Notes: generated by a model from the letters alone, not told the origin. 64,000 nucleotides of DNA from an uncultured Mycoplasmatota bacterium (GCA_946413985.1 CAMKMS010000002.1:42094-106093), one strand, 5' to 3'. Positions 10,740 through 58,787 are shown, numbered from the stretch's first letter. Made by a program: numbers and translations.

Positions 10740-12452
10740 ATGAATAAAGTAACAGCAATAATAGCACTTGTATTTTTAGTTATTATGGGTTTATTATTTG
10801 TTTTAAGGCTTATTATAAAAAGAAAAAACAAAAATAATATTTCAGCTACTATAGATTATCTTACTACTGAAAAGAATATGATAATATCCGATAGTTTAAT
10901 AACTGAACTAGGAAAAGCTAGTAAATTAGTTAATAATAAGAAAATAGAAAAACAAGTAAGTGATTGGAAAAAGAGATTTGAAGATATTGAAAAAATAGAT
11001 ATGCCAAAATTAACTGATGAATTAATTGAGGCAGAAAATTTAAGTGTTAATAAAGATATTGATGGAGCTTATATAGCACTTCAAAAATGTGAAAAAGATA
11101 TTTTTTTAGTAGAAGCAAAAGCTACTTCTCTTTTGAATGAAATAAGAGATCTTACTGAAAGTGAAGAAAGAAATAGAGAAGCAGTTACAAAATTAAAGAG
11201 TATATATAGAGAAATTATTTTTAAATATAATAAAAATAAAAATGATTATCAAAATGTATCTAATAGAATAGAATTACAATTTGAAAATATAGATAAATTA
11301 TTTAGTGCTTTTGAAACATCAGTTCAGAATAAAGAATATGAAGAATTGTCTAAAATAGTTAAAGTTCTTGATGATATGATAAACAACATAAGCATTGTTA
11401 TAGATGAAGCACCAACTATAGTAATGATGGCAACTATGGTTCTTCCTAAAAAAATGAGTGATATAAAAAGTGTTAGTACTAAGATGACTAAAGATGGTTA
11501 TAATCTAGAATATTTAAATATTGATTATAATATTGAAGAAACAAATAAAAAAATAGAAGAAATAATGGATAGATTAAATGTTCTTAACTTACAAGATTCT
11601 ATTTTTGATTTAAAAACATTAATAGATTATTATGAAGGACTTTATAGTGATTTTGATGCTGAAAAAAGAGGAAAAAAGAATTTTGAAAGAGGAATTATAA
11701 ATGTAGATGAAAGATTAAGAAAAACAACATCTATAGTTAAGAATTTATATTTAGAAATAGGTAATATTAAAGATACTTATGATTTAAGTGATGATGAAGT
11801 AAAAATAGTTGATGAAATAAATAACGAATTAAATGAGGTAAAAGAATCTTTTAAAGCAATAAATGATAGAACTTTGATTAAAGTTATGCCATATTCACGT
11901 CTTTCAAATGAGTGTGAAATGGTCGCTGTAAATTTATCTAAAGTTGAAGATAAATTAGAGACAACACTTAAGAATTTAGGAAGTTTAAAAGAGGATGAGG
12001 CAAGAGCACGTGATCAATTATATGAAATCAAAAATATTATAAATAATTCTAAGTATAAAATTAAAGATTATGATTTACCATTAATTCCTAGTAAGTTTTA
12101 TATTGAATTAAAAGAAGCATATGATGCTGTTAAAGAAATAAATAAAGAAATTGATAAGAAACCAATATCAATTAAAACATTAAACTTAAGAGTTGATACT
12201 GCTCGTGATTTAGCACTTAAATTGTATCAAACGGCTTCAAGTACAACTAAAACTGCAGCTATGGCAGAAATGGCTATAGTTTATGGAAATAGATATAGAT
12301 CAAGTAATAAAGATGTAGAAAAAGGGCTAATTGAAGGAACAAAGGCTTTTGAAAATGGAGACTATACAAAATCTTTAGAACTTGTTTTAGGTGCAATTAA
12401 TATAGTTGAACCGGGAATTCAAAAAAAATTATTAAACATGATGGAAAGTTAG
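10740..12452 (+). CDS. ezrA: septation ring formation regulator EzrA
   Basis: The protein has an N-terminal TM segment and about 550 aa of coiled coil. Its position before ftsK and its length (570 aa) fit EzrA. Confidence 0.75.
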   Translation: MNKVTAIIALVFLVIMGLLFVLRLIIKRKNKNNISATIDYLTTEKNMIISDSLITELGKASKLVNNKKIEKQVSDWKKRFEDIEKIDMPKLTDELIEAENLSVNKDIDGAYIALQKCEKDIFLVEAKATSLLNEIRDLTESEERNREAVTKLKSIYREIIFKYNKNKNDYQNVSNRIELQFENIDKLFSAFETSVQNKEYEELSKIVKVLDDMINNISIVIDEAPTIVMMATMVLPKKMSDIKSVSTKMTKDGYNLEYLNIDYNIEETNKKIEEIMDRLNVLNLQDSIFDLKTLIDYYEGLYSDFDAEKRGKKNFERGIINVDERLRKTTSIVKNLYLEIGNIKDTYDLSDDEVKIVDEINNELNEVKESFKAINDRTLIKVMPYSRLSNECEMVAVNLSKVEDKLETTLKNLGSLKEDEARARDQLYEIKNIINNSKYKIKDYDLPLIPSKFYIELKEAYDAVKEINKEIDKKPISIKTLNLRVDTARDLALKLYQTASSTTKTAAMAEMAIVYGNRYRSSNKDVEKGLIEGTKAFENGDYTKSLELVLGAINIVEPGIQKKLLNMMES

Positions 12453-18082: not shown

Positions 18083-19222
18083 ATGAAGAGTAATAAAGGA
18101 TTTACATTAGTAGAACTACTTGCAGTAATAGCAATATTAGCAATATTAGTATTAATAGCTCTTCCAAATACAATTGAAATGTTTAAAGAAGCAAAAAAGA
18201 ATTCATTTTTAACAGAGTGTAAACAAATATATAAAACAGCTCAAAATCAATGGATGAGTGATTCAATGTTTGAAACAAATGATCAACTATATTCAAGATG
18301 TAATGATTGTACAGGAAAAAAATTGAAATTAAGTGGAAGAGAAGAAATAGACTATTATATTAAATTAAATAAGGCTGGAAAAATAACAGATTTTTATATT
18401 ACAGATAATACTTTTCAATATAAGTATAATGGAGCTAACCTTCTTATTACTGATATAACTGAAGCAGAAGAAATAGCTAGTGTTGGAAATGAAGATATAA
18501 TTAAAATAGAAAATAATAATGTATTTAAAGGCACAACTCTTTTAACAAAAGAGAAAAACAGAAAGTTTGATATTATATATCAAGCAACTCCTGGAACTTT
18601 AACACTTGGAGATGAAGTGGCAATTGATACTGAACATTTTATTGTTTTGGAATCTGATTCAAGTAAAACAACAGTAATTGCGAAGTATAATTTAAATGTT
18701 GGGAATTTTTTGGTTACAAGTGCTCAAGAAGGACTCCAAAGCTCTGGTGCTAATGGATATATAAACAATTTTAATAAATATGGTTGTGTTGCATTTTCTG
18801 GTTCAAAATATTGGGAAGGAAAAACTGGTAATAATAAAAAATATCCTGGTAAATTGGGTACTAGTCCATATGCATTTGTTTATGATAATGATTATAAAGA
18901 TGCATCTGGTAGCAATTATAGTGTTGCATATTATGTTAATCAATATATAGATTATTTAAGCGGTTTTGTTTCATTTAATATGGTTGGTAGAATTCCACAA
19001 ATTACTGATTTAGATAAAGGAAGAACTTTAAGATCATATGATAATGTACTAGTTTTTCAAAAACAATGTTTCTTAATGGGGTCTGCTTGGAGTTCTAGTT
19101 ATATTATTGCATATACCCCTTCTGACTATTTTGATAATAATAATACACCAACTGCTTATAATGATAATACAACAGGTGGAGTAAAAGTGGTATTGGAAGT
19201 AGCCACATCATCAATTTTATAA
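18083..19222 (+). CDS. prepilin-type N-terminal cleavage/methylation domain protein (class III signal peptide), a large 379-aa pilin or pseudopilin
   Basis: The N-terminus is MKSNKGFTLVELLAVIAILAILVLIALPNT. Confidence 0.8.
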   Translation: MKSNKGFTLVELLAVIAILAILVLIALPNTIEMFKEAKKNSFLTECKQIYKTAQNQWMSDSMFETNDQLYSRCNDCTGKKLKLSGREEIDYYIKLNKAGKITDFYITDNTFQYKYNGANLLITDITEAEEIASVGNEDIIKIENNNVFKGTTLLTKEKNRKFDIIYQATPGTLTLGDEVAIDTEHFIVLESDSSKTTVIAKYNLNVGNFLVTSAQEGLQSSGANGYINNFNKYGCVAFSGSKYWEGKTGNNKKYPGKLGTSPYAFVYDNDYKDASGSNYSVAYYVNQYIDYLSGFVSFNMVGRIPQITDLDKGRTLRSYDNVLVFQKQCFLMGSAWSSSYIIAYTPSDYFDNNNTPTAYNDNTTGGVKVVLEVATSSIL

Positions 19223-32022: not shown

Positions 32023-33246
32023 TTGGCTTATTTTTTAATATATAATATATTTGATAATATGAAGAAGAATGCACAAATAAAATATCCTACTTTTAAATTA
32101 TTAAATAAGCCAATTTTGATTATGACTTTAATTTTTTCTATTGGTGGAGCTTTTTTAATACTTGATGCATCAAGTATTTCTGCTGTTTTAACTTATGGCT
32201 TTGATACACCATATTATTATTTAATAAGACAAATTATTTTTATTGTAATTGGTTATATTGCAGCATTATTTATTATTAAATTTCCAACCAAGTATTATAA
32301 GGGTATTAGTTTATTTTTAACAATGATATTTATTGTAACTTTGATTGTTTTATTTATAAAAAATTCACTATTTTCCTCTAGAGTAAGTGAAGTAACTATT
32401 TCTATGTTTGGTGGAAAATTTCAACCCGCAGAGTTTTTAAAAGTGTTTTTAATAATGTATATGGGATCTTTTTATGGATCATGGGCAAATAGAAAAGTAA
32501 CTTCAAAATATTCTTTTATTATACCTTTAGTATTATGTTTTTTATCTGCAGTATTAATACTTCTTGGAGGAGACTTTGGTAGTGCAGCAATAATGGTTGC
32601 TTTATATGCATTAACATTTGTAAGTGTTCCATCAAAAGATAAAAATGTTAAAATAGTAAAATTTTTAGCTGTTTCTGGTTTAGTATGCGCTATTTTAATA
32701 TTAAAATTTGGTTACAAAATTATACCCAGTTCTATTCTTGAAAGCAGTTATAGATTAAATAGACTTGTTTATGCAAATCCATGTGATAGATATGAAGATA
32801 ATTCAGGATATCAGGTATGTAATGGATACATTGCTATAGATAATGGAGGATTATGGGGAGTTAAAATTGGAAATTCTGTACAAAAGTATATGTATTTACC
32901 TGCAAGTCATACTGACTTTATTTTTCCTATAGTAGTTGAAGAATTAGGAGTAGTAGTTGGTGTTATTATTATACTTGCATATATGGCTTTAATATTTTTT
33001 ATATTTAGAGTTGCTGTAAATACTAAAAATCTTCAAAATTCAATTATTTGTTATGGAATTAGTATTTATTTTATGTTACATATTTTTGTTAATTTAGGTG
33101 GAGTACTTGGAATTATTCCATTAACTGGAGTACCACTTCCATTTTTAAGTTATGGTGGAAGTTTCTGTATAACATTAATATGTTCATTTGCTTTAGTACA
33201 AAGAATTAATATAGAAAATGAGATTGAAAGGCTTAAAAATGCTTGA
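32023..33246 (+). CDS. SEDS-family peptidoglycan glycosyltransferase (FtsW/RodA/SpoVE); the true start may be the ATG at 32059
   Basis: It has 10 TM segments and is FtsW/RodA-like. Confidence 0.75.
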   Translation: MAYFLIYNIFDNMKKNAQIKYPTFKLLNKPILIMTLIFSIGGAFLILDASSISAVLTYGFDTPYYYLIRQIIFIVIGYIAALFIIKFPTKYYKGISLFLTMIFIVTLIVLFIKNSLFSSRVSEVTISMFGGKFQPAEFLKVFLIMYMGSFYGSWANRKVTSKYSFIIPLVLCFLSAVLILLGGDFGSAAIMVALYALTFVSVPSKDKNVKIVKFLAVSGLVCAILILKFGYKIIPSSILESSYRLNRLVYANPCDRYEDNSGYQVCNGYIAIDNGGLWGVKIGNSVQKYMYLPASHTDFIFPIVVEELGVVVGVIIILAYMALIFFIFRVAVNTKNLQNSIICYGISIYFMLHIFVNLGGVLGIIPLTGVPLPFLSYGGSFCITLICSFALVQRINIENEIERLKNA

Positions 33247-33727: not shown

Positions 33728-34237
33728 GTGAAAAAATTTTGGGATGCAATTAAAGATTATGTATATATAGTTTTAGCTGTTTTAGTAATTAGAACATTTA
33801 TAGTTACACCAGCTATTGTAAGTGGTGCAAGTATGGATGATACACTAAATGATGGTCAATTAGTTATTATTAATAAATTTATTTATAGATTCAGTGATAT
33901 TGATAGATTTGATATTGTTGTTTTAGATAATGATTTAACAAAAGATAAAATAATTAAAAGAGTTATTGGACTTCCTAATGAAAAAATAGAGTATAGACAA
34001 AATAGATTATATATTAATGATGAATTAATTGAAGTTGATTTTGATTATAAAGAAACAGAAAATTTTTCATTTATGACAGGTGATGGAGAATATTTTGTAC
34101 TTGGTGATAATAGACCAGTATCAAAAGATAGTAGATCATTTGGAGCTTTCAAAAAAGAAGATTTTGTTGGACGAGTAAAATATAGGTTATATCCATTTAA
34201 CAAATTTGGTAATGTTACAAAGAAGAAAGATTTTTAA
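33728..34237 (+). CDS. lepB: signal peptidase I (bacterial P-type, Ser/Lys)
   Basis: The GASM motif is present in a 169-aa protein with a GTG start. Confidence 0.8.
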   Translation: MKKFWDAIKDYVYIVLAVLVIRTFIVTPAIVSGASMDDTLNDGQLVIINKFIYRFSDIDRFDIVVLDNDLTKDKIIKRVIGLPNEKIEYRQNRLYINDELIEVDFDYKETENFSFMTGDGEYFVLGDNRPVSKDSRSFGAFKKEDFVGRVKYRLYPFNKFGNVTKKKDF

Positions 34238-36589: not shown

Positions 36590-37138
36590 ATGAGACAAGA
36601 GAAAGGATTACAAAATATTATAATTGTTGTTTTATCAGTAGCAGTACTTGCTATGTCAGTAGGTTTCGCTGTTTATGCTCAACAATTAAATGTAAATGGA
36701 ACTGCAACATTTAGTGCTGCAAAATGGGATGTACATTTTGATACAAGTACATTTAGTGAAACAAGTGTTATTAAAGCAAGCTCTAAGACTGTAGGTAATA
36801 CTGCTATTACTTATTCAGTTACATTACCAAGTCCTGGAGATGAATATTCATTTACAGTAAATGCTAAGAACTTTGGAACAATTGATGCTGCTTTAGAAGG
36901 AATTACATTATCTGGTTTAACAGCTGCTCAACAAAAATATATAAGTTATACTGTTAATTATAATGGAACAGATTATGATGAAACTACAGATGGTTTAGCT
37001 GAAGATTTATTAGTTGATGATTCTCATCCTATGACTGTTACTGTTGCATATTTATTACCAGATGAAGCATCAGACCTACCAGCAACAGATGTTGAAGTAA
37101 ATTTAACAGTTGCATTAGATTATATAACTGTTGATTAA
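36590..37138 (+). CDS. small secreted TasA/camelysin-like protein with a SipW-cognate-type signal peptide
   Basis: The N-terminus is ...LAMSVGFAVYAQQLNVNGTATFS, which resembles the GGTxAxFSD class cleaved by SipW. Confidence 0.55.
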   Translation: MRQEKGLQNIIIVVLSVAVLAMSVGFAVYAQQLNVNGTATFSAAKWDVHFDTSTFSETSVIKASSKTVGNTAITYSVTLPSPGDEYSFTVNAKNFGTIDAALEGITLSGLTAAQQKYISYTVNYNGTDYDETTDGLAEDLLVDDSHPMTVTVAYLLPDEASDLPATDVEVNLTVALDYITVD

Positions 37139-37218: not shown

Positions 37219-38349
37219 ATGAAAAAATACTTAGTATATGGTTTAGAATTATTACTATTTATTTCTGCCATAATATTTAATATATTTTATAAAAGCGAAT
37301 TACTTTTAAAAATATCAATCATTATTATTGGTATAATATATTTATTAGAATATGGATTTCATAAAGATAATTCTTATTTAAAACCACTTGTAACAAGAAT
37401 AGTCATTTCTTGTTTATTGTCATTTTTTATAATAATTTATTCAATAGGATTATTTTTGGGTTTTAATAAAACGGTATTATCTTTTAATTTTAATTATTTA
37501 TTTAATGTTGTTGTCTTAGAAATTGTAGCTATAATTTTGCTTGAATTAATGAGATACATTATATGCAAAAATTTAACAACAACAAAAAAACCAATTGTAT
37601 TTTTTACAATAATAATGATGGCGTTAAATATTATAACAGAGATAAATGGTTACAATCTTGGTGAAGCAGAAGGCATTTTTGTTTTCATTAGTGTTGTTGT
37701 TATACCAGTAGTCTCTAGAGAATTACTATGTTCTTATTTAGCATATAAGGTTAGTTATTTACCAGCTTTGATATTCAAATTAGTTATAGTATTATATGAG
37801 TTTGTTTTACCTATAATACCAAATTTAGGATATTATTTATATGCAACATTTAATTTGTTTTTGGTTTTCTTTATATATTATTTATCAAGTAAAAGTATTG
37901 ATTATGCTGAGAAAGCTAAAGTGTATGTTAATAAGTCTACAAGAAGAGTAATATATTATCCAATTATATTATTGTTATTTATTATAATTGTTCTTATATC
38001 AGGTATATTTAGATACAAAATGATAGCAATTGGATCTAATTCAATGTCTCCTGTTTATGGAAGAGGAGATGCTGTAATTTACAAAAAAGTAGATGCAAAC
38101 GATGTACAATATGGAGATATAATTGTATTTTCAAAAGAAGGAACAATAGTAACACATAGAATTACAAGTATTACTAAAAATGGAAATGTCATTTTAATTA
38201 AAACAAAAGGTGACGCTAATAATACTATTGATAGTTTTACTGTAAATGGTAGCGAGGTTTTGGGAAAAGTAGAATATAGAATCAAATATATTGGTTTTCC
38301 AACAGTTTGGATTAACGAATTGTTTGAGGGAAGGGAGATTAATGATTAA
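37219..38349 (+). CDS. fusion of a roughly 250-aa polytopic membrane domain (about 8 TM) with a C-terminal ER/archaeal-type signal peptidase I (SipW/Sec11, S26B)
   Basis: The C-terminal 110 aa carry IGSNSMSPVYGRGDAV (Sec11/SipW GSxSMxP...RGD) and a THR His motif. Confidence 0.7.
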   Translation: MKKYLVYGLELLLFISAIIFNIFYKSELLLKISIIIIGIIYLLEYGFHKDNSYLKPLVTRIVISCLLSFFIIIYSIGLFLGFNKTVLSFNFNYLFNVVVLEIVAIILLELMRYIICKNLTTTKKPIVFFTIIMMALNIITEINGYNLGEAEGIFVFISVVVIPVVSRELLCSYLAYKVSYLPALIFKLVIVLYEFVLPIIPNLGYYLYATFNLFLVFFIYYLSSKSIDYAEKAKVYVNKSTRRVIYYPIILLLFIIIVLISGIFRYKMIAIGSNSMSPVYGRGDAVIYKKVDANDVQYGDIIVFSKEGTIVTHRITSITKNGNVILIKTKGDANNTIDSFTVNGSEVLGKVEYRIKYIGFPTVWINELFEGREIND

Positions 38350-39383
38350 TGGAAACTAAAGTAAAAATTAATTATACAAAAGTTGTGTTAGTTATTTTAT
38401 TTATTCTTGTTATTATCCTAAACGTCGTTATGTATAAAAAAGGATTCTATAAAACTAATGTTGAAACTATAATGTATAAGGAAAATAATTCGATTCATTA
38501 TAAGGTATATTACAAAAAGAATGATTTTTATGAAACAAAGTTTATAGAAGAAGATAAAACATATATCACGAGTTTGATTAATTATATAAAAGTTTCATAT
38601 AATTATAATATTCAATTTGATAGTGTTGTATCTGGAAGTTATAAGTATTATGTTCTTGCTACAGTAGAAGCTAATAAACCAAATAATGAAGTAGGTAATT
38701 ATTGGACTAAGAATTATAAATTAACCGATGAGAAAAAGATTTCTATCGATAAATCAACCGAATATTCTATTAATCAAGATATTAAGATTGATTATAATAA
38801 ATATAATAATGCATTAAATGAATTTAAAAGTACTTTAGGTATTGCAACTTCTGGTGTATTAAAAGTATATTTAGTTGTTGAATCTGATTTAACATCAAAA
38901 GGAATGAAAGTTGATATACCAAGTTCATTGGTATTAAGAATGCCTTTAAGTGAAAAAACAATAGAAGCAACAATTGATACTTCAGCTAAGAATAATATAA
39001 AAGAAATTACTAGAATTGTTGAAACAAGTGCTCAAAAGAGTAAAAAACTAATTGCATTAGGAATAAGTTTTATTATTGAACTTACTATATTAATAGCATT
39101 AACTTTGATTAATAGAAAAAATAGAATGGCAAATGCTTTCGAAAATACTATTAACAAGTATTTAGATACGTATGATAGTATAATTGTTAATATTGATAAA
39201 TTTCCAACATTAAGTAATTATAATGTTATTGAGGTATCTAGTTTTGATGAGTTATTAGATGCGCATAGTGAAGTAAGAATGCCAATTAATTTTTATAAAT
39301 ATAATAGTAGAACATGTTATTTCATATTGATGAATGATAAAACAATATGGAAATATACAATGAGAAAAAGTGACTTTGATTGA
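38349..39383 (+). CDS. bitopic membrane protein (N- and C-terminal TM); a possible TapA-like assembly or anchor factor
   Basis: Its start overlaps the peptidase stop by 1 nt. It has no enzymatic motifs. Confidence 0.45.
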   Translation: METKVKINYTKVVLVILFILVIILNVVMYKKGFYKTNVETIMYKENNSIHYKVYYKKNDFYETKFIEEDKTYITSLINYIKVSYNYNIQFDSVVSGSYKYYVLATVEANKPNNEVGNYWTKNYKLTDEKKISIDKSTEYSINQDIKIDYNKYNNALNEFKSTLGIATSGVLKVYLVVESDLTSKGMKVDIPSSLVLRMPLSEKTIEATIDTSAKNNIKEITRIVETSAQKSKKLIALGISFIIELTILIALTLINRKNRMANAFENTINKYLDTYDSIIVNIDKFPTLSNYNVIEVSSFDELLDAHSEVRMPINFYKYNSRTCYFILMNDKTIWKYTMRKSDFD

Positions 39384-39402: not shown

Positions 39403-41757
39403 ATGAATAATAAGCAAAGACTTATTATTAGTGTGGTTACATTCCTCGCTTTTGCATTAATGAGCGTAGGATTTGCCACATATCGAGTTAGACTTAATGT
39501 TACAGGGGTTGCAACTTTTAGTAAAAATGGTAAAATTGCTATAACCAATGTTAGATTAATTTCATCAAATAATATAACAGACCTACAAGATCCAACATTT
39601 ACTGATGATAGTATAAATTTTAATTTAAATTTTAGCGTTGAAAATCAAAATGAACTTGCTCAAGAGTATTCAGCAACATATGAAATCACTATGACTAATG
39701 ATTCTTTTTATAATTATATATTTGCAAGTAATTTGTTTGTTCCTTCTATAGAAACTACAAATAATGAAAATCTTGATGTTGCTTTTTCAATTGAAGGAAT
39801 TGATATTGGTGATATAATTCCAAGTAAAGACGTAGTGACATTTACTGCAATTCTAGATATGTATCCTAAAGATACTGGGGATTATAATGTTAGTGGGGAA
39901 GTGCAAATTGGTACAGAACAAGGTGATACTCCACCTACATATTCTTTAATGGGTAGTATACCTAAAAACACAACATTAGATTTAACTGGTTCAACTACTA
40001 TGCAAAGTGTTAAATTAACTGTTATCAATACTTATCCAGAAAGTAAAACATTTAATATTTCAAATAGTGGTAATAGTTTTTCTGTTGTTAATAGTAGTGG
40101 AAATGCTTTAGGAACTTTATCAGTTGGAGCTGAAGATACAGAAGAATACTATATATATATAAAGAGAAGGAATGGAGTAACTTTTCCATCTTCTCCACAA
40201 AAAATAAATTTATATTTTACTCCTACTGATGGAAATAGGACTGGACTTGGTTCAATTTCAATTCTTGTTGATGTTGATAATTCCATTCTTGATGATGAAC
40301 CACCAATTATTAGTAATGTTAATGCCGATATTGTTTATGAAGATGGTAAAATTAAAGTTACATGGGATGCTACTGATGATAGTGGAATAGATCATTTTAT
40401 AATAGAAATGTATAATGATAGTGATACTTTACTTAATACTATTACTACTTCTGATTCATCAGAAGAATATACATTTTCATCATTAAGTGCAGGGACTTAT
40501 TATTTTAAAGTATATGGAGTAGATAATTCTTCTAATCATAATAATGGTCAATCCGTTTCAACTACGTGTACTACTTCTGATGGTTATTGTTCAAGGAGTA
40601 CATCATCTTCTTATCAATGGACATTCAATGTAACAAATAGTTGTTCAAACTGTACTTTTACTGGTAATAATAGTGTTTTTATAGGTTCAACTTATACGGC
40701 AACAGTACGAGCATCTAATTGGTATAATTTACCAAATACTATAACTGTAACTATGAATAATACACAATTATCTACTTCTCAATATACATATAATCAAAAT
40801 AATGGTTCAATTAGTATTCCAAATGTAACAGGAAATTTGAATATTCAAGTAACAGCATCATTTGCTTGTTTAGTAAAAGGAACTAAAATTTTACTTGCAA
40901 ATGGAGAATATAAAAATATTGAAAATATTACTTATAATGATTTATTAGCTGTATGGAATTATGAAACAGGAAGTTTAACTTATGAATATCCAATATGGCT
41001 TGAAAACAAAGCATATACTAATAAATATACAAAAACTACATTTAGTGATGGAACATATTTAAAAACTGTTGCTCTTCATGGTTTATTTAGTCCAACTTAT
41101 AATGAGTTTATTTCAGTTAATGATAGTGAAAAGTATAAAGTTGGTACTAAAATACTTAAGATAGTAGATGGTAAATTTAAAGAAGTAACAATCAAAAAGA
41201 TTGAAACAATTAATGAAAAAGTAGAATATTATCATGTTGTTTCAACAAGATATTATAATGTTATTGCTAATGATGTGTTGACTACCGATGGAACTGTAAT
41301 TCTATCAAACCTATATGGTTTTTCTGATAATATTACATGGCCAAGTGTTAGAAATGAAATAATGGCTAGTGGATTATATTCATATAACGAATTTAAAGAT
41401 ATTATGCCTTATTATATGTTTAAAGGATTAAGAGTGGAAGAAGGAAAAGTACTACAAAAATATGGTTATACTAAAGATATTTTTAGATATTATTTACTTA
41501 ATAATCAATTAAATGAACATATGATGAAAAAAATAGACACTTCTATAAATGGCAAAAGATTATGGATGGTTAGCACTTCTTTAGATGAAATTAATGAATT
41601 AAATATGAATAATTTCTTACATGAAGAAGGATCTATGTATAAACTTCCAAATGCTTTGGGTGTAAGAAAGTGGTATTCAACTTCTGAAAATAAATATTAT
41701 AATCCATCTGATACTATAGAAGTAGTTCATGGAATGCATTTTATAGCAATTAAATAG
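39403..41757 (+). CDS. large secreted protein with a SipW-cognate-like N-terminus, an FN3-like domain, a Hint (intein-like) domain, and a 150-aa C-terminal domain of unknown function
   Basis: The N-terminus ...ALMSVGFATYRVRLNVTGVATFS parallels that of the 36590 gene. The Hint module runs from CLVKGTKILLANGE... (block A) through KTVALHGLF (TxxH-like) to YYHVVSTRYYNVIANDVLTT (C-block). Confidence 0.6.
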   Translation: MNNKQRLIISVVTFLAFALMSVGFATYRVRLNVTGVATFSKNGKIAITNVRLISSNNITDLQDPTFTDDSINFNLNFSVENQNELAQEYSATYEITMTNDSFYNYIFASNLFVPSIETTNNENLDVAFSIEGIDIGDIIPSKDVVTFTAILDMYPKDTGDYNVSGEVQIGTEQGDTPPTYSLMGSIPKNTTLDLTGSTTMQSVKLTVINTYPESKTFNISNSGNSFSVVNSSGNALGTLSVGAEDTEEYYIYIKRRNGVTFPSSPQKINLYFTPTDGNRTGLGSISILVDVDNSILDDEPPIISNVNADIVYEDGKIKVTWDATDDSGIDHFIIEMYNDSDTLLNTITTSDSSEEYTFSSLSAGTYYFKVYGVDNSSNHNNGQSVSTTCTTSDGYCSRSTSSSYQWTFNVTNSCSNCTFTGNNSVFIGSTYTATVRASNWYNLPNTITVTMNNTQLSTSQYTYNQNNGSISIPNVTGNLNIQVTASFACLVKGTKILLANGEYKNIENITYNDLLAVWNYETGSLTYEYPIWLENKAYTNKYTKTTFSDGTYLKTVALHGLFSPTYNEFISVNDSEKYKVGTKILKIVDGKFKEVTIKKIETINEKVEYYHVVSTRYYNVIANDVLTTDGTVILSNLYGFSDNITWPSVRNEIMASGLYSYNEFKDIMPYYMFKGLRVEEGKVLQKYGYTKDIFRYYLLNNQLNEHMMKKIDTSINGKRLWMVSTSLDEINELNMNNFLHEEGSMYKLPNALGVRKWYSTSENKYYNPSDTIEVVHGMHFIAIK

Positions 41758-41806: not shown

Positions 41807-42820
41807 ATGAAATATCCAAATTTTATTTCAAAAAATAGTTGTATTGGTATTATCGCTCCATCAAGTGGAGCAAACAAAGAAACTAGAATAAATAAATTTC
41901 AAAATGCAATAAAAAGATTTGAATCTTTAGGTTTTAAATTAAAAGTATCTAAGTATTTGTTTAATTGTGTTAAAGGTAGAAGTGGTAGTGCTATTAATAG
42001 AGCTAAAGAGTTCAATGAAATGTTAAAGGATAAAGATGTTGATTTAATTTTGTGTGCAACAGGAGGGGATTTTTTAGTAGAAATATTACCTTATATAGAC
42101 TTTGAATTAATTAATAATAATTTAAAATATGTGTGTGGTTTTTCTGATCCAACAGGCATTTTATACCCATTAACTACAAAGTATGATGTATCGACTATTT
42201 ATGGTCAAAATTTTAGTCCTTTTGGAATGAGAGATTTACATAAATCACAAGAAGACTTTTTAGACATTGTAACTGGTAAAAAGCTTTATGAAGAAGGATA
42301 TCCATTATATGAAAATGAAGATAGAATAGAATTAACAGGTCTAGAAAACTATAATTTAACAACTAAAGTAAAATATAATTCTCTTGATAATAAGAATGTT
42401 AATACTTATGGAAGAATAATTGGTGGATGTATGGATATTATTGCTGAACTTGCTGGTACTAAATATGATGGAATAAATGAATTTAACCAAAAGTATAAAA
42501 AAGATGGAATTATATGGTATTTTGATAATTGTGAACAAAGTTACGATGAAGTAATAAGATTATTATGGAGATTTAATGAACTTGGGTATTTTAAATATAC
42601 AAAGGCAATAATATTTGGTAGATTTGGTTTAGAAGTATCAAATTATGAATATGATATTGTTTCTTGTTTAAAAGATAGTGTTTTAGGACAATTAGATATT
42701 CCAGTTATATATGGCGCAGATATTACTCATAAATCACCTTGTCTTACAATTATAAATGGTAGTATCGCTAATATTAAACTTGAAGATAATGAATTTAGTA
42801 TTAATTTTGAATTAAAATAA
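41807..42820 (+). CDS. S66-family LD-carboxypeptidase (LdcA/MccF-like)
   Basis: The Ser nucleophile motif is CGFSD, and the N-terminus is IGIIAPSS. Confidence 0.7.
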   Translation: MKYPNFISKNSCIGIIAPSSGANKETRINKFQNAIKRFESLGFKLKVSKYLFNCVKGRSGSAINRAKEFNEMLKDKDVDLILCATGGDFLVEILPYIDFELINNNLKYVCGFSDPTGILYPLTTKYDVSTIYGQNFSPFGMRDLHKSQEDFLDIVTGKKLYEEGYPLYENEDRIELTGLENYNLTTKVKYNSLDNKNVNTYGRIIGGCMDIIAELAGTKYDGINEFNQKYKKDGIIWYFDNCEQSYDEVIRLLWRFNELGYFKYTKAIIFGRFGLEVSNYEYDIVSCLKDSVLGQLDIPVIYGADITHKSPCLTIINGSIANIKLEDNEFSINFELK

Positions 42821-55949: not shown

Positions 55950-58787
55950 TTATTCTACTATAACAGTTTGTTCCATTAACTTATTAATATAAGCACCATT
56001 GTATACAAATGATACAGTATATGCTATTATGTAAGTTCCTGGATTTTGTGTTAAATCATTAGGTGTTATCGTTGATAATTCTCCATCTTTAGAAATACTA
56101 GAGAGTATCACATTTAAATTTGTTATGCTTTGTTTTATTTCAACTCCATCATATTTAATACTTGTAACTGATGAATCATTAAGTTCATTAAAGTCTGAAT
56201 CTTTAGTTAGATTTAAGTTTAAATCTTTCATAGAAATTGTAATTTTTTCTTGATCAACATTTTCTCCTGATGGAGCATAGTCAAATACTACCTTATATCC
56301 ATCACTAGCATTTTTCTTAAATCTTGAGTAAACACTTTTTACTATAACGCCATCATATATTCCATTATATTTTGTAGTATCAATTGAATATGATGTTTTT
56401 TTAGTCCATCCAACATATGTTGTTTTAGTTCCTGATGTCAAATAAACATTAAATCCAAATGTACCCATTTTACTTCTGTTATATGAAATTCTTTCTTTTA
56501 AATATTTCTCTGGTTTAATCTTCCAATTATCATTAAAATAATTTGTTAAGTATTCTACATCTACAGCACTTGGTGTTCCTGGTGAAGCCCAAGATAAATT
56601 AATAGAATTAGTACCAAATGAATATGTAACATTGCTTGGATTAGATAATTTACTAAATCTTTGAGATACTTCAGATGGTCCAGTATTTCCAACAAACATA
56701 AATGTTCCAATTAAACTATCTGGAGTATATGCACTAGGTTTCTGTGCAGGTATTGTCTCAAGTTCTACTTTAGCTGTTGTTAATCCTGCAGGTCTTGTAA
56801 ATGTTGAATTTTCTTCATATATTGCTTTTGATAATTCAGCTTGAATAGTAATTCTTTCTGTGATTGATGGACTATTAACTAAATAATATTTTTTCTTAAC
56901 ATTTTCTTTTGATAAGCTATCAGTATATCCATACCATATTGACATTGAATAATCTTTTGTGAATCCTGCAGTCCACATATCTGGAATAACTGTATCATTT
57001 AATCCATATTTTCTAAGTTGTGAATAATCATATGAAGTAGTTCCTGTCTTTGTAGCAATTTGAGTACCACTTACTTTAACTCTATATGAAGTAGCGTTTG
57101 TTAAAATACTTGCAATCATATAAGCAGTTGTTGGTTTCATTACTTGTTCTGATTTTATATTTTTCTTTACAACTTCTTCTGTTTCTCTATAAACAATTTT
57201 TGTATATGTATGAGGTGTATATCTTTTTCCATTATTACCAAAGGCTGAGTATGCACTAGCAAGTTGAATAGGTGAGACACCATTAAATGCACCTATTGAG
57301 TAAGATTCTGGAAGTTCAGTTTTTCCTTCAGGTAATATGTCATTTACATAATCTATTCCAAGTTTTAAACCAAACTCAATTTTTTGTTCATTTGTAGTTA
57401 ATCTAAATGCTTGAAGAGCACATGTATTCATTGATTGTTGTAAGCAATCTTTCATTGTCATAAATCCACTATATGAGTTATTAAAGTTTTTAATTACTCC
57501 ACCACCATATGGTGTTTCATCATTTATAAATGGTCCATATGTACTTAAATTTGTATATTCAATAGCAGGTCCATAATCAATAATAGGTTTAATAGTTGAT
57601 CCTGGTTGACGTTTAATTTGTCCACTAAATGTTGCTACGTTTAATGTCATTGCTTTCTTTTTATAACGTCCTGCACCAACTGCAATAACTGCTCCAGTAT
57701 CATTATCTATTACACCAACACCAACTTCAACTTTTTTATCTTTAAAGTCATGTGTTTTATAAAATTTATTAATGGCATTTTGTTTCTTTGTGACCATTGT
57801 TGTATATATATCCATTGGTACTTCATATGGATTATTATCTGTATCATCTATTATTTCTTGTACAACTGTATCAATAAATCCTTGATATTGGTTAGATGAT
57901 TCAGAACCCACATCTAAGAAATCTTTAATATGTACAGCAATTCCTGCCTGATATTGTTCATCAGTTATATAACCGTGTCTTTTCATAAGATATAATACAG
58001 TGTTTTTTCTTTCATTTGCATCGTCAGGATAAACATAAGGATTATATCCATTTGGAGATTGGAACATTCCGGCAAGTTGAGCTGCTTCAACTAAATTTAA
58101 ATCTCCAACTTTTTTATTAAAGTAATATTTACTAGCAGCACTAACACCATATATATTTCCACCTAAACAAGGGTTATTAATATAATATTCAAATATTTCT
58201 TCTTTTGTAAGATTTTTTTCCATTTTGAATACTGACATATAGATATCTCTAAATTTTCTTACAATTCCTTCAATTCCAGATGCCTCTGTAGAAGTGAATG
58301 CTAATTTAGATAGTTGCATTGTTAGAGTAGAAGCACCACCACCACCACGACCCATTACTTGGCTAATAGAAGCTTTTATAAATCTTGGAGCATCAAATCC
58401 ATTATGCTGAAAAAATCTTGAATCTTCTGTTGCTATAATTGCATCTATTAAAACTTGAGGTAATTCATCATATGTTATTTTTTCTCTTTGTTCTGTTCCA
58501 AGTGTCGCAAATAGTTTTCCTTTTGAATCAAATAATCTTGATGGTTCTTTTTCAAACATTTTTTCTATATTATATTCAGGTGCACTTTTAACAATATAGT
58601 AGCAAAAACCTACGCCTCCAATAAATAGAGCAATTGCAAATAATACAATTAATACAAGTAACCAGTAAAAAAATCTAAATCTTCTTCTTCTGCGTTTTTT
58701 TACTTTTTTGGTATTAGTATTTATTACTAAATCATTTTTTTTCTTTTCAGATTCTTTTTTAACCTTTTTAAAATTTATTTTTTTCAT
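55950..58787 (-). CDS. ponA: class A penicillin-binding protein 1A (bifunctional GT51 glycosyltransferase/transpeptidase) with a C-terminal extension
   Basis: The GT51 motifs EDSRFFQHNG and GASTLTMQL are present, and the transpeptidase motifs are STIKP and KTGT. Confidence 0.9.
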   Translation of the reverse strand: MKKINFKKVKKESEKKKNDLVINTNTKKVKKRRRRRFRFFYWLLVLIVLFAIALFIGGVGFCYYIVKSAPEYNIEKMFEKEPSRLFDSKGKLFATLGTEQREKITYDELPQVLIDAIIATEDSRFFQHNGFDAPRFIKASISQVMGRGGGGASTLTMQLSKLAFTSTEASGIEGIVRKFRDIYMSVFKMEKNLTKEEIFEYYINNPCLGGNIYGVSAASKYYFNKKVGDLNLVEAAQLAGMFQSPNGYNPYVYPDDANERKNTVLYLMKRHGYITDEQYQAGIAVHIKDFLDVGSESSNQYQGFIDTVVQEIIDDTDNNPYEVPMDIYTTMVTKKQNAINKFYKTHDFKDKKVEVGVGVIDNDTGAVIAVGAGRYKKKAMTLNVATFSGQIKRQPGSTIKPIIDYGPAIEYTNLSTYGPFINDETPYGGGVIKNFNNSYSGFMTMKDCLQQSMNTCALQAFRLTTNEQKIEFGLKLGIDYVNDILPEGKTELPESYSIGAFNGVSPIQLASAYSAFGNNGKRYTPHTYTKIVYRETEEVVKKNIKSEQVMKPTTAYMIASILTNATSYRVKVSGTQIATKTGTTSYDYSQLRKYGLNDTVIPDMWTAGFTKDYSMSIWYGYTDSLSKENVKKKYYLVNSPSITERITIQAELSKAIYEENSTFTRPAGLTTAKVELETIPAQKPSAYTPDSLIGTFMFVGNTGPSEVSQRFSKLSNPSNVTYSFGTNSINLSWASPGTPSAVDVEYLTNYFNDNWKIKPEKYLKERISYNRSKMGTFGFNVYLTSGTKTTYVGWTKKTSYSIDTTKYNGIYDGVIVKSVYSRFKKNASDGYKVVFDYAPSGENVDQEKITISMKDLNLNLTKDSDFNELNDSSVTSIKYDGVEIKQSITNLNVILSSISKDGELSTITPNDLTQNPGTYIIAYTVSFVYNGAYINKLMEQTVIVE

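What the first reader, a model, noticed from the sequence alone, without database searches (positions are those of the whole stretch)
39403..41757. Secreted SipW-leader protein carrying a Hint/intein-like autoprocessing domain and an unknown C-terminal domain
After the leader there is a beta-rich region and an FN3-like domain. A Hint module follows, starting at a Cys (CLVKGTKILLANGE...), with a TxxH-like block (KTVALHGLF) and a C-block (YYHVVSTRYYNVIANDVLTT). About 150 aa of unknown function follow. In polymorphic toxins and Hedgehog-type proteins, Hint domains auto-cleave or ligate the flanking domain. This suggests the C-terminal domain is released, or the N-terminal part is covalently attached to a target after export. 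That would be unusual for a TasA-pathway substrate.
Basis: partly seen in the sequence, partly recalled or inferred. Interest (0 to 1): 0.7.

Follow-up and report, generated by a model that had tools for sequence, protein, structure and literature searches.

The report
Self-cleaving Hint tail on fibre protein
The last gene of a TasA/AbpX-type biofilm-fibre operon in an uncultured gut Firmicute ends in a Hedgehog/intein-type self-cutting domain plus a new 155-residue tail, and this undescribed module also caps many other surface proteins in related bacteria.

Summary
ORF 39403-41757 (784 aa) has an export leader, pilin-like and FN3/Ig-like beta domains, a true HINT-fold domain starting at Cys489, and a conserved ~155-aa tail.

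- **Hint domain:** family profiles hit solved Hint domains (E 8e-6). A confident model (pLDDT 94) matches BIL, Hedgehog and intein structures. Cys1 and the block-B His are present in every distant relative checked.
- **Not an intein:** there is no C-terminal His-Asn and no +1 nucleophile. Natural short homologues in the same operon stop just before the Cys.
- **Operon:** it has the composition of the recently described AbpX/TasA-superfamily fibre locus: an AbpX-like pilin, a ~10-TM dedicated signal peptidase I and a DUF5305 accessory protein. The Hint sits where other bacterial loci carry SLH or LPXTG anchors.
- **Tail:** a helical sub-domain with no known relative, plus an InlB-B-repeat-like beta sub-domain. 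Some relatives replace the beta sub-domain with a membrane helix.
- **Distribution:** Hint plus tail is rare (226 clusters at 50% identity among 1.84 billion representatives), at or near the C-terminal end, and also caps LRR, repeat and pilin-like proteins.

Most likely the module cuts at Ala488|Cys489 after export. Whether water or a specific acceptor resolves the thioester is undetermined.

The parts
36590..37138 (+). Small (182 aa) AbpX-like pilin, the putative major fibre subunit. It has the same leader and 'LNVxGxATFS' strand as the large protein.
   Evidence: hhalign of family profile A4 against P. abyssi AbpX: E 1.1e-4, probability 57%, 117 collinear columns. Weak PDB hits to AbpX 9sj2/9rhp, E 0.16-0.23. 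DUF11 hits in 8 of 23 members. Conserved first gene of the cassette in 44 of 80 loci.
37219..38349 (+). Dedicated SipW/archaeal-type signal peptidase I with a polytopic (about 9-10 TM) N-terminal extension.
   Evidence: TIGR02228 E 3.1e-25, 88.9 bits against a cut-off of 51.85. Peptidase_S26 25.3 bits against 22.9. Hydrophobic segments and SNSMSP / THRI / GDANN motifs. Matches the '10-TM SPase I' of AbpX loci.
38349..39383 (+). DUF5305 protein (2 TM, extracellular domain, cytoplasmic C-domain), the putative SPase I accessory subunit.
   Evidence: PF17231 E 4.8e-15, 56 bits against a cut-off of 29. TM segments at 10-28 and 234-252. Role as proposed.
39403..41757 (+). The 784-aa large protein (whole CDS including the stop codon).
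   Evidence: 90 homologues found.
39403..39486 (+). Export leader (residues 1-28). Cleavage is predicted around ...GFATY/R/V... by analogy with AbpX TYA|QW.
   Evidence: The exact site is inferred, not determined.
39487..40278 (+). Pilin-like N-terminal region (residues 29-292): donor-strand-like VRLNVTGVATFSK followed by beta-sandwich domains.
   Evidence: hhalign of pilin profile A4 against N-region profile A5: probability 97.8%, E 8.5e-13, over residues 7-113. The local HMM also hits residues 195-268.
40300..40557 (+). FN3-like domain (residues 300-385).
   Evidence: PF00041 E 1.2e-4, sub-threshold. PF00041 is precomputed in many homologues.
40594..40860 (+). Further beta-rich domain (residues 398-486) that ends where the natural short forms end.
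   Evidence: Alignment A1. Domain type not determined.
40867..40869 (+). Cys489 codon: Hint position 1, the predicted nucleophile. The scissile bond is Ala488|Cys489.
   Evidence: Invariant in 47 of 47 long homologues and in all 97 distant representatives that cover the site. About 12 short homologues terminate immediately before it.
40867..41289 (+). HINT-fold domain (residues 489-629), including Glu534 (41002-41004), His559 (41077-41079) and a block F/G equivalent ending Thr-Thr-Asp629.
41290..41517 (+). Tail sub-domain 1 (residues 630-705): aromatic-rich, 4-5 helices. It is the constant companion of the Hint.
   Evidence: Models. No relative found. Retained in all variants, including those lacking sub-domain 2.
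41542..41754 (+). Tail sub-domain 2 (residues 714-784): small beta domain resembling the InlB B-repeat / MucBP beta-grasp. Exchangeable.

Best explanation
The gene encodes the large, pilin-headed accessory subunit (tip, nucleator or anchor class) of an AbpX/TasA-superfamily donor-strand fibre operon. It is made as a precursor with a self-processing C-terminal module.

Proposed sequence of events:
1. The protein is exported by Sec.
2. The dedicated multi-TM signal peptidase, working with DUF5305, removes the long leader. This exposes the N-terminal strand shared with the small pilin.
3. Outside the cell the C-terminal Hint domain folds together with its helical tail.
4. Cys489, assisted by His559, attacks the Ala488 carbonyl in an N-to-S acyl shift.
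5. The resulting thioester is resolved. The mature N-fragment (about residues 29-488, the same extent as the natural short homologues) separates from the Hint-tail fragment.

There is no splicing and no conserved second cleavage.

My committed reading is that the default acceptor is water, i.e. autoproteolytic maturation. In this reading the tail's last sub-domain (a beta-grasp here, a membrane helix in some relatives) holds the precursor at the cell surface until the cut is made.

Shown: the fold, the catalytic residues, the domain boundary, the operon type, and the modular distribution. Inferred: that cleavage occurs, its timing, the acceptor, and the retention role.
For: HINT fold and motifs:
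- Profile against PDB sequences, E 8e-6, full length; member Pfam hits; AF2 pLDDT 93.9; Foldseek E 2e-9 to BIL2, 1.7e-8 to Hedgehog, then inteins.
- Cys1 is present in 47 of 47 close homologues and in all 97 distant representatives covering the site. The block-B His is present in 95 of 95.

Domain boundary:
- About 12 homologues of 490-534 aa end just before the Cys. The two whose context was fetched (P0084, P0076) sit in the same four-gene cassette with no downstream Hint gene.

No splicing:
- The Hint ends T-T-D then G. There is no His-Asn and no conserved +1 Cys/Ser/Thr.

Operon identity:
- TIGR02228 SPase above cut-off with about 10 TM segments; DUF5305 above cut-off; pilin profile related to AbpX; N-terminus of the large protein homologous to the pilin.
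- Collinear cassette in 44 of 80 genomic loci.
- Same composition as published AbpX loci.

Tail as part of the module rather than cargo:
- pTM 0.90 for Hint plus tail.
- In full-length hits the tail lies at or close to the C-terminal end (mostly within a few residues).
- In the 14 carriers examined in detail, with unrelated N-terminal parts (LRR_5, Flg_new, N_methyl), a Hint precedes the tail.
- The last sub-domain is swapped for a TM helix plus charged tail, or is absent, in variants.

BIL-type Hint domains lacking the C-terminal motif are reported to self-cleave at their N-terminus (review PMC7765530).
Against: - No experiment or proteomic data show cleavage.
- The canonical block-B Thr and block-F Asp are not conserved, so the acyl shift could be slow or need a cofactor.
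- A 300-aa module kept only to remove itself is costly. Other C-terminal sorting modules (LPXTG and T9SS-CTD; PGF-CTERM from my own knowledge) end in transfer to an anchor, not in hydrolysis.
- The rigid, conserved tail looks more like a Hedgehog-style acceptor-recognition region than a mere tether.
Confidence: 0.45

Rival explanations
1. Self-contained anchoring, like a sortase or Hedgehog. The same thioester forms at Ala488, but the tail recruits a cell-envelope nucleophile such as a peptidoglycan stem-peptide amine, lipid II, a teichoic acid or a membrane lipid. The N-fragment, and the fibre it heads, then becomes covalently attached to the producer's surface while Hint-tail is discarded.
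For: - The architecture is Hog-like: variable N-terminal cargo, constant Hint, and a conserved tail packed on it (pTM 0.90).
- In other bacterial AbpX loci the pilin-headed accessory proteins carry SLH or LPXTG anchors at this same C-terminal position.
- A variant carries a hydrophobic helix plus charged tail after the Hint and helical domain, like a cell-wall sorting signal.
- Ser-rich or Pro-rich linkers precede the Cys in some carriers.
- The organism has peptidoglycan: a class-A PBP and a SEDS polymerase.
- Invariant Glu534 sits at Cys+45, numerically the position of the Hedgehog general base.
Against: - Short forms with no anchor occupy the same operon slot.
- Several carriers already have N-terminal anchors: a lipobox or an N-methyl pilin helix.
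- At least one carrier genome has LPXTG proteins and a sortase next door, so sortase is not missing from these lineages.
- The tail shows no similarity to the Hedgehog sterol-recognition region or to known wall-binding domains.
- The Glu534/Asp46 equivalence could not be tested.
Confidence: 0.22
2. Covalent 'harpoon' adhesion or ligation. The Hint-tail sits at the distal free end of fibre, pilus or adhesin proteins. The tail binds an external ligand (a host glycoprotein or another cell's surface), and a nucleophile on that ligand resolves the thioester, tying the fibre covalently to its target.
For: - Carriers are adhesin-like proteins (BspA-type LRR, Listeria-Bacteroides repeats, modular type-IV-pilin-like proteins) whose N-termini are the attachment ends.
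- The closest solved structure is the Tetrahymena BUBL BIL2 domain, which from my own knowledge ligates its N-terminal partner to target lysines.
- The beta sub-domain resembles InlB B-repeat / MucBP folds found in host-binding proteins.
Against: - It is purely architectural inference and no ligand is indicated.
- The variant with a C-terminal membrane helix places the module at the producer's own membrane, not at a distal tip.
- Hint thioesters are transient.
Confidence: 0.1
3. Catalytically silent module. The Hint fold and tail persist as a structural or binding domain at the C-terminus, and the protein functions uncleaved.
For: The canonical block-B Thr, block-F Asp and C-terminal His-Asn are absent. 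Non-catalytic Hint-fold domains exist: weak AXH hits appear in 25 of 34 members.
Against: Cys1 and the block-B His are present in every representative checked among proteins less than 50% identical to each other. That is hard to explain without catalysis. The natural truncations lie exactly at the Cys.
Confidence: 0.12
4. Polymorphic-toxin style cargo release (PT-HINT). The Hint frees the C-terminal 155 aa as a toxin or effector.
For: Hint domains in secreted bacterial proteins often precede toxin domains, for example MafB.
Against: - No PT-HINT (PF07591) or Hint_2 hit at E up to 0.1 in 34 members.
- The tail is conserved rather than polymorphic and packs rigidly on the Hint.
- There is no cleavage motif between Hint and tail.
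- The downstream genes are housekeeping and differ between loci (LdcA here, NifU and others elsewhere), with no gene resembling an immunity gene.
Confidence: 0.03
5. A true intein that splices the N-terminal part to the tail.
For: Intein N-terminal block A is present, and 8 of 34 members hit Intein_splicing.
Against: There is no terminal His-Asn and no +1 nucleophile. The short forms show that the 'extein' ends at the Cys. The tail occurs only together with the Hint.
Confidence: 0.01

Closest known systems
Hedgehog / Hog proteins (Hint plus sterol- or adduct-recognition region)
   Same: - Secreted precursor with a variable N-terminal 'cargo', then a Hint starting with Cys, then a conserved C-terminal extension.
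- No C-terminal His-Asn, so only the N-terminal junction is processed.
- Structural match to 1at0 (E 1.7e-8); PF01079 hits in 12 of 34 members.
   Different: - Bacterial, and exported by Sec with a pilin-type leader.
- The tail (helical plus beta-grasp, 155 aa) has no detectable similarity to the sterol-recognition region.
- The junction is not Gly-Cys-Phe, and the acceptor is unknown.
- The window protein itself does not reach the PF01079 threshold.
B-type bacterial intein-like (BIL) domains (Amitai 2003 and Dassa 2004, as summarised in PMC7765530)
   Same: A Hint in a secreted, variable bacterial protein. It has the intein N-terminal motifs but lacks the C-terminal splicing motif, and N-terminal autocleavage is expected. 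A C. thermocellum BIL structure is among the fold hits (2lwy).
   Different: [quoted passage not shown] No B-type BIL model was available, so membership was not tested.
Tetrahymena BUBL BIL2 domain (PDB 6tmm / 6y75)
   Same: Best sequence-profile hit (E 8e-6) and best structural hit (E 2e-9, TM 0.78-0.80).
   Different: It is eukaryotic and intracellular, flanked by ubiquitin-like domains, and has a C-terminal Asn (the crystallised mutant is C1A-N143A). Identity is about 20%.
AbpX / TasA-superfamily fibre loci with SLH or LPXTG anchor proteins (bioRxiv 10.64898/2026.01.04.697558); Bacillus tapA-sipW-tasA
   Same: - Pilin with a long leader and donor strand, a TIGR02228 multi-TM SPase I, a DUF5305 accessory protein, and a larger pilin-headed accessory protein in one operon.
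   Different: - The accessory protein ends in Hint plus tail instead of SLH or LPXTG. No Hint is mentioned in that study.
- The hosts are uncultured, 26% GC gut and rumen Bacilli rather than Clostridia or archaea.
- Direct similarity to B. subtilis TasA was not significant (TasA sequence recalled from memory).
PT-HINT modules of polymorphic toxins (e.g. MafB)
   Same: A Hint in a secreted, filament- or adhesin-like bacterial protein.
   Different: The polarity is opposite. There the C-terminal part is the variable toxin cargo and has an immunity gene. Here the C-terminal part is constant and the N-terminal part varies. There is no PF07591 hit.
Sortase/LPXTG sorting signals; FrpC-type 'clip-and-link' self-processing module (the latter from my own knowledge)
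   Same: A C-terminal element on diverse surface proteins whose removal goes through an acyl intermediate that can be passed to an amine. The variant with a hydrophobic helix plus charged tail mimics a sorting signal.
   Different: The catalyst is built into the substrate. The chemistry is a Hint N-to-S shift, not a separate transpeptidase or Asp-Pro cleavage. Transfer has not been demonstrated.

Membership tests
HINT superfamily | Horseshoe-like Hint fold | tested here: met
   AF2 pLDDT 93.9. 61 PDB matches at E up to 0.001, and all 50 listed top hits are Hint, intein or Hedgehog structures, with TM on the target up to 0.82.
HINT superfamily | Nucleophile (Cys/Ser/Thr) at position 1 and a conserved block-B His | tested here: met
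   Cys489 and His559 are invariant in family alignments A1/A2. Among distant representatives, Cys is present in all 97 that cover the site and His in 95 of 95.
Intein (class 1) | C-terminal His-Asn followed by Cys/Ser/Thr at +1, allowing splicing of two exteins | tested here: not met
   The Hint ends Thr-Thr-Asp629 then Gly630. The triplet varies (TDG, TDD, TYE, TSD and others).
Intein (class 1) | Inserted within a host protein that is contiguous in intein-less homologues | tested here: not met
   Homologues without the Hint simply end before the Cys. The tail never occurs without the Hint.
Hog / Hedgehog-type autoprocessing domain | Secreted precursor with N-terminal cargo, then Hint, then a conserved C-terminal recognition region, processed only at the N-terminal junction | tested here: met
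   Architecture shown. This is an architectural test only.
Hog / Hedgehog-type autoprocessing domain | Membership of Pfam Hint PF01079 above the gathering score | tested here: inconclusive
   The window protein has no PF01079 hit. 12 of 34 relatives hit it, best E 9e-8, and it is precomputed for 5 homologues.
Hog / Hedgehog-type autoprocessing domain | Acidic general base (Hh Asp46) and transfer of the cargo to a sterol or other adduct | not testable with these tools
   Invariant Glu534 lies at Cys+45, but the alignment to Hh-C was uninformative. Transfer needs biochemistry.
A-type BIL | Conserved C-terminal His-Asn | tested here: not met
   Feature definition from PMC7765530.
B-type BIL | Intein N-terminal motifs without the C-terminal motif, in variable secreted bacterial proteins | tested here: met
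   Feature definition from PMC7765530.
B-type BIL | Match to the family's own sequence motifs or profile | not tested
   No B-type BIL profile exists in the libraries offered.
PT-HINT / polymorphic toxin | PF07591-type Hint followed by a variable toxin domain, with an adjacent immunity gene | tested here: not met
   No PF07591 hit in 34 members. The tail is conserved. Downstream genes are unrelated housekeeping genes.
AbpX-type TasA-superfamily fibre locus | Dedicated TIGR02228 SPase I with a multi-TM extension, plus a DUF5305 accessory gene | tested here: met
   TIGR02228 88.9 bits against 51.85; about 9-10 TM segments; PF17231 56 bits against 29. Description.
AbpX-type TasA-superfamily fibre locus | Pilin homologous to AbpX/TasA, with a leader and an N-terminal donor strand | tested here: inconclusive
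   Against AbpX: hhalign E 1.1e-4, probability 57%, collinear; HMM E 0.16. Against TasA: not significant.
AbpX-type TasA-superfamily fibre locus | Polymerisation by donor-strand complementation | not testable with these tools
   Needs multimer modelling or cryo-EM.
Bacillus SipW-cognate signal peptide | Match to an NCBIfam SipW-type signal-peptide model | tested here: not met
   No such family matched at E up to 1 for either leader-bearing protein. The SPase scores 59.8 against 190 for the Bacillus SipW equivalog.
Sortase substrate | C-terminal LPXTG motif, hydrophobic segment and charged tail | tested here: not met
   None in this protein or its family. A TM helix plus charged tail, without LPXTG, occurs in the 'Saccharibacteria'-labelled variants.

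The most novel reading that the evidence does not exclude
Hint plus tail is a self-contained C-terminal 'sorting and ligation' signal, a bacterial counterpart of the Hedgehog Hog domain. The tail would recruit a specific non-water nucleophile (a peptidoglycan or lipid component of the producer, or a ligand on a target surface). The Hint would then transfer the C-terminus of TasA/AbpX-type fibre subunits, BspA-like LRR adhesins and modular pilins onto that nucleophile, with no sortase-like enzyme involved.
Probability: 0.3. Interest if true: 0.9.

Novelty: new variant of a known kind. Interest (0 to 1): 0.68.

Why it matters
Hint domains are known to drive protein splicing, Hedgehog cholesterol attachment and toxin release. 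They have not been tied to TasA-superfamily biofilm fibres or described as a general C-terminal module of Gram-positive surface proteins.

This family offers an unusually clean natural experiment:
- With-module and without-module homologues differ exactly at the catalytic Cys.
- The tail is constant while the N-terminal partners vary.
- One variant swaps a sub-domain for a membrane helix.

If the thioester is passed to an envelope or target molecule, this would be an enzyme-free alternative to sortase anchoring and the first bacterial functional analogue of Hedgehog lipidation. It could also serve as a compact self-ligating tag for protein engineering. If it only hydrolyses, it still defines a new maturation step for fibres made by abundant, uncultured gut and rumen Bacilli.

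Tried and rejected
- **Single-sequence searches** were nearly blind. Pfam gave only a 25-residue Hom_end_hint match, NCBIfam gave intein_Nterm at E 0.4, and phmmer against the PDB gave only spurious acetyltransferase hits. Family profiles were needed.
- **The search for related loci** with the whole-protein alignment failed for lack of a conserved stretch. The Hint-tail alignment worked.
- **TasA homology** of the small protein: hhalign probability 0.8%, with only the 'PGD...N.G' motif aligning (TasA sequence recalled from memory).
- **Hedgehog Asp46/His72 equivalence:** hhalign against Hh-C (sequence recalled from memory) gave a meaningless local alignment, so the point is left open.
- **N-region profile** against PDB sequences: nothing.
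- **Promoter scan** was uninformative in this AT-rich DNA: 54 found against 51 expected.
- **'Sortase is missing, so the Hint replaces it'** was rejected as an argument. L011 has LPXTG proteins and a sortase beside a carrier. Genome-wide absence could not be tested.
- **'Wall-less mollicute, so lipid anchoring'** was rejected. The window encodes a class-A PBP, a SEDS polymerase and EzrA.
- **Toxin-cargo and true-intein readings** were rejected (see rival explanations).
- **A conserved helper gene** next to carriers of other architectures was looked for and not found.
Full report
**1. Observation**

The ORF at 39403-41757 (+) is real and encodes 784 aa. ATG 39403 is preferred over the upstream GTG for two reasons: an AGGAG lies 9 nt upstream, and homologues begin MNNKQRL....

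On the single sequence, library searches are almost silent.
- Pfam gives a sub-threshold fn3 (E 1.2e-4, residues 305-383) and a 25-residue Hom_end_hint match at 489-513 (E 0.0096).
- NCBIfam gives intein_Nterm at E 0.4.
- phmmer against the PDB gives nothing relevant.

**2. The family settles the Hint question**

A search of 5.8 billion proteins found 90 relatives, none carrying an informative name. Most are 760-830 aa, some are 1050-1120 aa, and about 12 are 490-534 aa.

That Cys is invariant in all 47 long forms within a CLxxGTxI block. A His (His559) and a block F/G-like YYxVxSTxYYNxIANxxLTTD are also conserved. The Hint ends Thr-Thr-Asp then Gly rather than His-Asn then Cys/Ser/Thr.

Evidence from a profile of residues 483-784 (34 sequences):
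- It hits the solved BIL2 Hint of the Tetrahymena BUBL locus at E 8e-6 over the entire module.
- 30 of 34 members hit Hom_end_hint, 12 of 34 hit the Hedgehog-type Hint PF01079 (best E 9e-8), and 8 of 34 hit Intein_splicing. None hit PT-HINT or Hint_2.
- An AlphaFold model of Hint plus tail is very confident (pLDDT 93.9, pTM 0.90).
- Foldseek places its first ~150 residues with BIL2 (E 2e-9), Hedgehog 1at0 (E 1.7e-8), many mini-inteins and a C. thermocellum BIL, at TM 0.7-0.8 on the target.

I then checked the 143 representatives listed by an exhaustive search; these are less than 50% identical to each other. Ninety-eight cover the Hint. All 97 that include the site have Cys at position 1, and 95 of 95 have the block-B His.

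The Hint is therefore real and looks catalytically competent for the first step, the N-to-S acyl shift. It lacks what is needed for splicing.

**3. The tail**

Residues 630-784 are conserved (49% mean column identity). They have no Pfam family and no PDB sequence relative.

Modelled alone (pLDDT 90), the tail is a 4-5-helix, aromatic-rich sub-domain followed by a small beta sub-domain.
- Foldseek finds nothing.
- The helical part has no relative.

The pTM of 0.90 for Hint plus tail indicates that the two pack as one unit.

**4. What operon this is**

The three upstream genes are as follows.
- A 182-aa secreted protein.
- A 376-aa signal peptidase I: TIGR02228 at 88.9 bits against a 51.85 cut-off, with SipW-type Ser/His motifs preceded by about 9 hydrophobic segments.
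- A DUF5305 protein: 56 bits against a 29-bit cut-off, with two TM segments.

The genes are 0-80 nt apart with no internal terminator.

DUF5305 occurs in only four papers of the library, all on TasA-like archaeal and bacterial bundling fibres. A January 2026 preprint describes AbpX loci as a pilin, a distinctive ten-TM SPase I, a DUF5305 SPase accessory protein, and minor or tip subunits. In bacteria these loci also carry pilin-headed SLH or LPXTG anchor proteins.

Evidence linking this window to that locus type:
- AbpX's own leader/donor-strand junction (...AIGLTYA|QWSETLSLSATISTG) resembles ...SVGFAVYAQQLNVNGTATFS in the small protein and ...SVGFATYRVRLNVTGVATFS in the large one.
- The small-protein profile aligns collinearly with AbpX (hhalign E 1.1e-4, probability 57%; HMM E 0.16). 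It does not align significantly with TasA.
- The first ~110 residues of the large protein are homologous to the small protein (hhalign 97.8%, E 8.5e-13; BLASTP of the leaders E 9e-8).

Among 80 loci fetched from one-genome-per-species collections, 44 show the collinear four-gene cassette. About 11 more have the SPase and DUF5305 genes beside the large gene. Outer flanks are conserved only in the closest relative.

The hosts are uncultured gut and rumen MAGs labelled Bacilli, 'Tenericutes', Erysipelotrichaceae and similar. The window itself is 25.7% GC and encodes a class-A PBP, a SEDS polymerase and EzrA, so the organism is walled.

**5. The module is optional, modular and autonomous**

- **Optional.** The two short forms whose context was fetched (P0084, P0076) lie in the same cassette and are followed by unrelated genes. 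The operon therefore exists with and without Hint-tail, split at the Cys.
- **Rare and C-terminal.** A profile of the tail searched against 1.84 billion representatives finds only 226 proteins. In full-length hits the match lies at or close to the C-terminal end.
- **Modular.** In the carriers examined, a Hint starting with Cys directly precedes the tail. Carriers include the following:
  - 924-2470-aa proteins with BspA-type LRRs (LRR_5 E 1e-132);
  - Listeria-Bacteroides repeat proteins (Flg_new E 1e-65), one with a lipobox leader;
  - proteins with type-IV-pilin N-methyl motifs;
  - a Cys-rich protein.
- **Exchangeable last sub-domain.** In MAGs labelled Saccharibacteria/Nanosyncoccus, ~1090-aa proteins keep the Hint and helical sub-domain but replace the beta sub-domain with a linker, a C-terminal TM helix and a charged tail. 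Others end right after the helical sub-domain.
- **Autonomous.** Carriers of other architectures share no neighbour gene, and no gene resembling an immunity gene follows.

The pattern is constant Hint plus helical domain, an exchangeable last element, and variable N-terminal partners.

**6. Mechanism**

Shown: a Hint fold with invariant Cys1 and His; no splicing motifs; a domain boundary at the Cys marked by natural truncations; membership of a Sec/SPase-dependent fibre operon.

Inferred: after export and leader removal, the Hint performs an N-to-S acyl shift at Ala488|Cys489, and the thioester is resolved. This separates a mature N-fragment, equal in extent to the short forms, from Hint-tail. 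The inference is consistent with the reported N-terminal self-cleavage of BIL domains that lack the C-terminal motif (PMC7765530).

I put about 0.75 on Cys489-dependent processing of some kind. The acceptor is not determinable here.
- I commit to hydrolysis, with the last tail element acting as a surface-retention device, as the single most likely version (0.45).
- Transfer to an envelope nucleophile follows at 0.22.
  - For: the Hog-like architecture; the position where SLH or LPXTG anchors sit in other AbpX loci; the variant with a TM helix plus charged tail.
  - Against: the anchor-less short forms; the N-terminal anchors already present on several carriers; a sortase cluster beside one carrier.
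- Ligation to an external target follows at 0.10.
- A silent structural module (0.12) is disfavoured by the invariance of Cys and His.
- Toxin release and true splicing are effectively excluded.

**7. Comparison and novelty**

In function the module works like a Hog domain or a B-type BIL. In context it sits where cell-wall anchors sit in related fibre operons.

It is a member of the HINT superfamily (fold and catalytic residues tested and met). It is not an intein, an A-type BIL or a PT-HINT, because defining features were tested and not met.

No paper in the library links Hint domains with TasA-type systems, and the AbpX locus survey does not mention one.

I rate it a new variant of a known kind: a distinct Hint-plus-tail C-terminal module, with a structurally unprecedented helical companion domain, attached to fibre accessory subunits and adhesin-like proteins of uncultured gut Bacilli.

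Noticed in passing
window 33728-34237 (+): A second, conventional LepB-type signal peptidase I (PF10502 E 2.8e-42) lies 2.4 kb upstream of the dedicated multi-TM SPase. The genome therefore keeps a housekeeping SPase and a fibre-specific one close together.
   Followed up: partly
window 4077-8327 (+): A 1416-aa protein with a lipobox-like leader (...LSSC), six Listeria-Bacteroides (Flg_new) repeats and a C-terminal NAGPA phosphodiester-glycosidase domain. It is a large surface protein without the Hint-tail.
   Followed up: partly
window 18083-19222 (+): A 379-aa type-IV-pilin-like protein (N_methyl E 2.4e-8). Relatives of this class elsewhere carry the Hint-tail (P0141, P0210, L011), but this one does not.
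   Followed up: partly
window 32023-33246 (+), 55950-58787 (-), 10740-12452 (+), 41807-42820 (+): A SEDS FtsW/RodA, a class-A PBP, EzrA and an LD-carboxypeptidase. Despite the 'Tenericutes/Mycoplasma' labels on related MAGs and 25.7% GC, the organism makes peptidoglycan.
   Followed up: yes
L011 3141-10894: Two LPXTG proteins and a class-C-like sortase lie directly upstream of a 776-aa N-methyl (pilin-like) protein that ends in Hint plus tail. This juxtaposes sortase-dependent and Hint-bearing surface proteins.
   Followed up: partly
L057, L059, L062, L063 (about 1090-aa ORFs); L068, L069: In MAGs labelled Saccharibacteria/Nanosyncoccus, the Hint and helical domain are followed by a Cys-x-Cys linker, a low-complexity stretch, a C-terminal TM helix and a charged tail, or the protein ends right after the helical domain. 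These proteins have an ordinary signal peptide and no fibre cassette nearby. The taxonomic labels were not verified.
   Followed up: partly
P0124 (1096 aa), C-terminal about 60 residues: A near-exact internal duplication within the beta sub-domain (...Y[IV]YTLKEPKSVKTKEFVGWFNT twice). This may be an assembly artefact or a real tandem duplication.
   Followed up: no
L013, L020, L028, L032, L033: The cassette is rearranged: the SPase and DUF5305 genes lie downstream of, or on the opposite strand from, the large gene. The linkage is kept but the gene order is not.
   Followed up: no
window 39403-41757, residues 389/396 and 414/417: Two conserved Cys pairs (C.T..GYCS and NSCSNC) lie in the N-fragment just upstream of the Hint. 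If they form extracellular disulfides, Cys489 must nevertheless stay reduced to be active.
   Followed up: no
window 41002-41004 (Glu534): There is a conserved Glu at Cys+45: invariant in alignment A2 and present in 82 of 95 distant representatives. The position is numerically the same as the Hedgehog general base Asp46. Structural equivalence could not be tested.
   Followed up: partly
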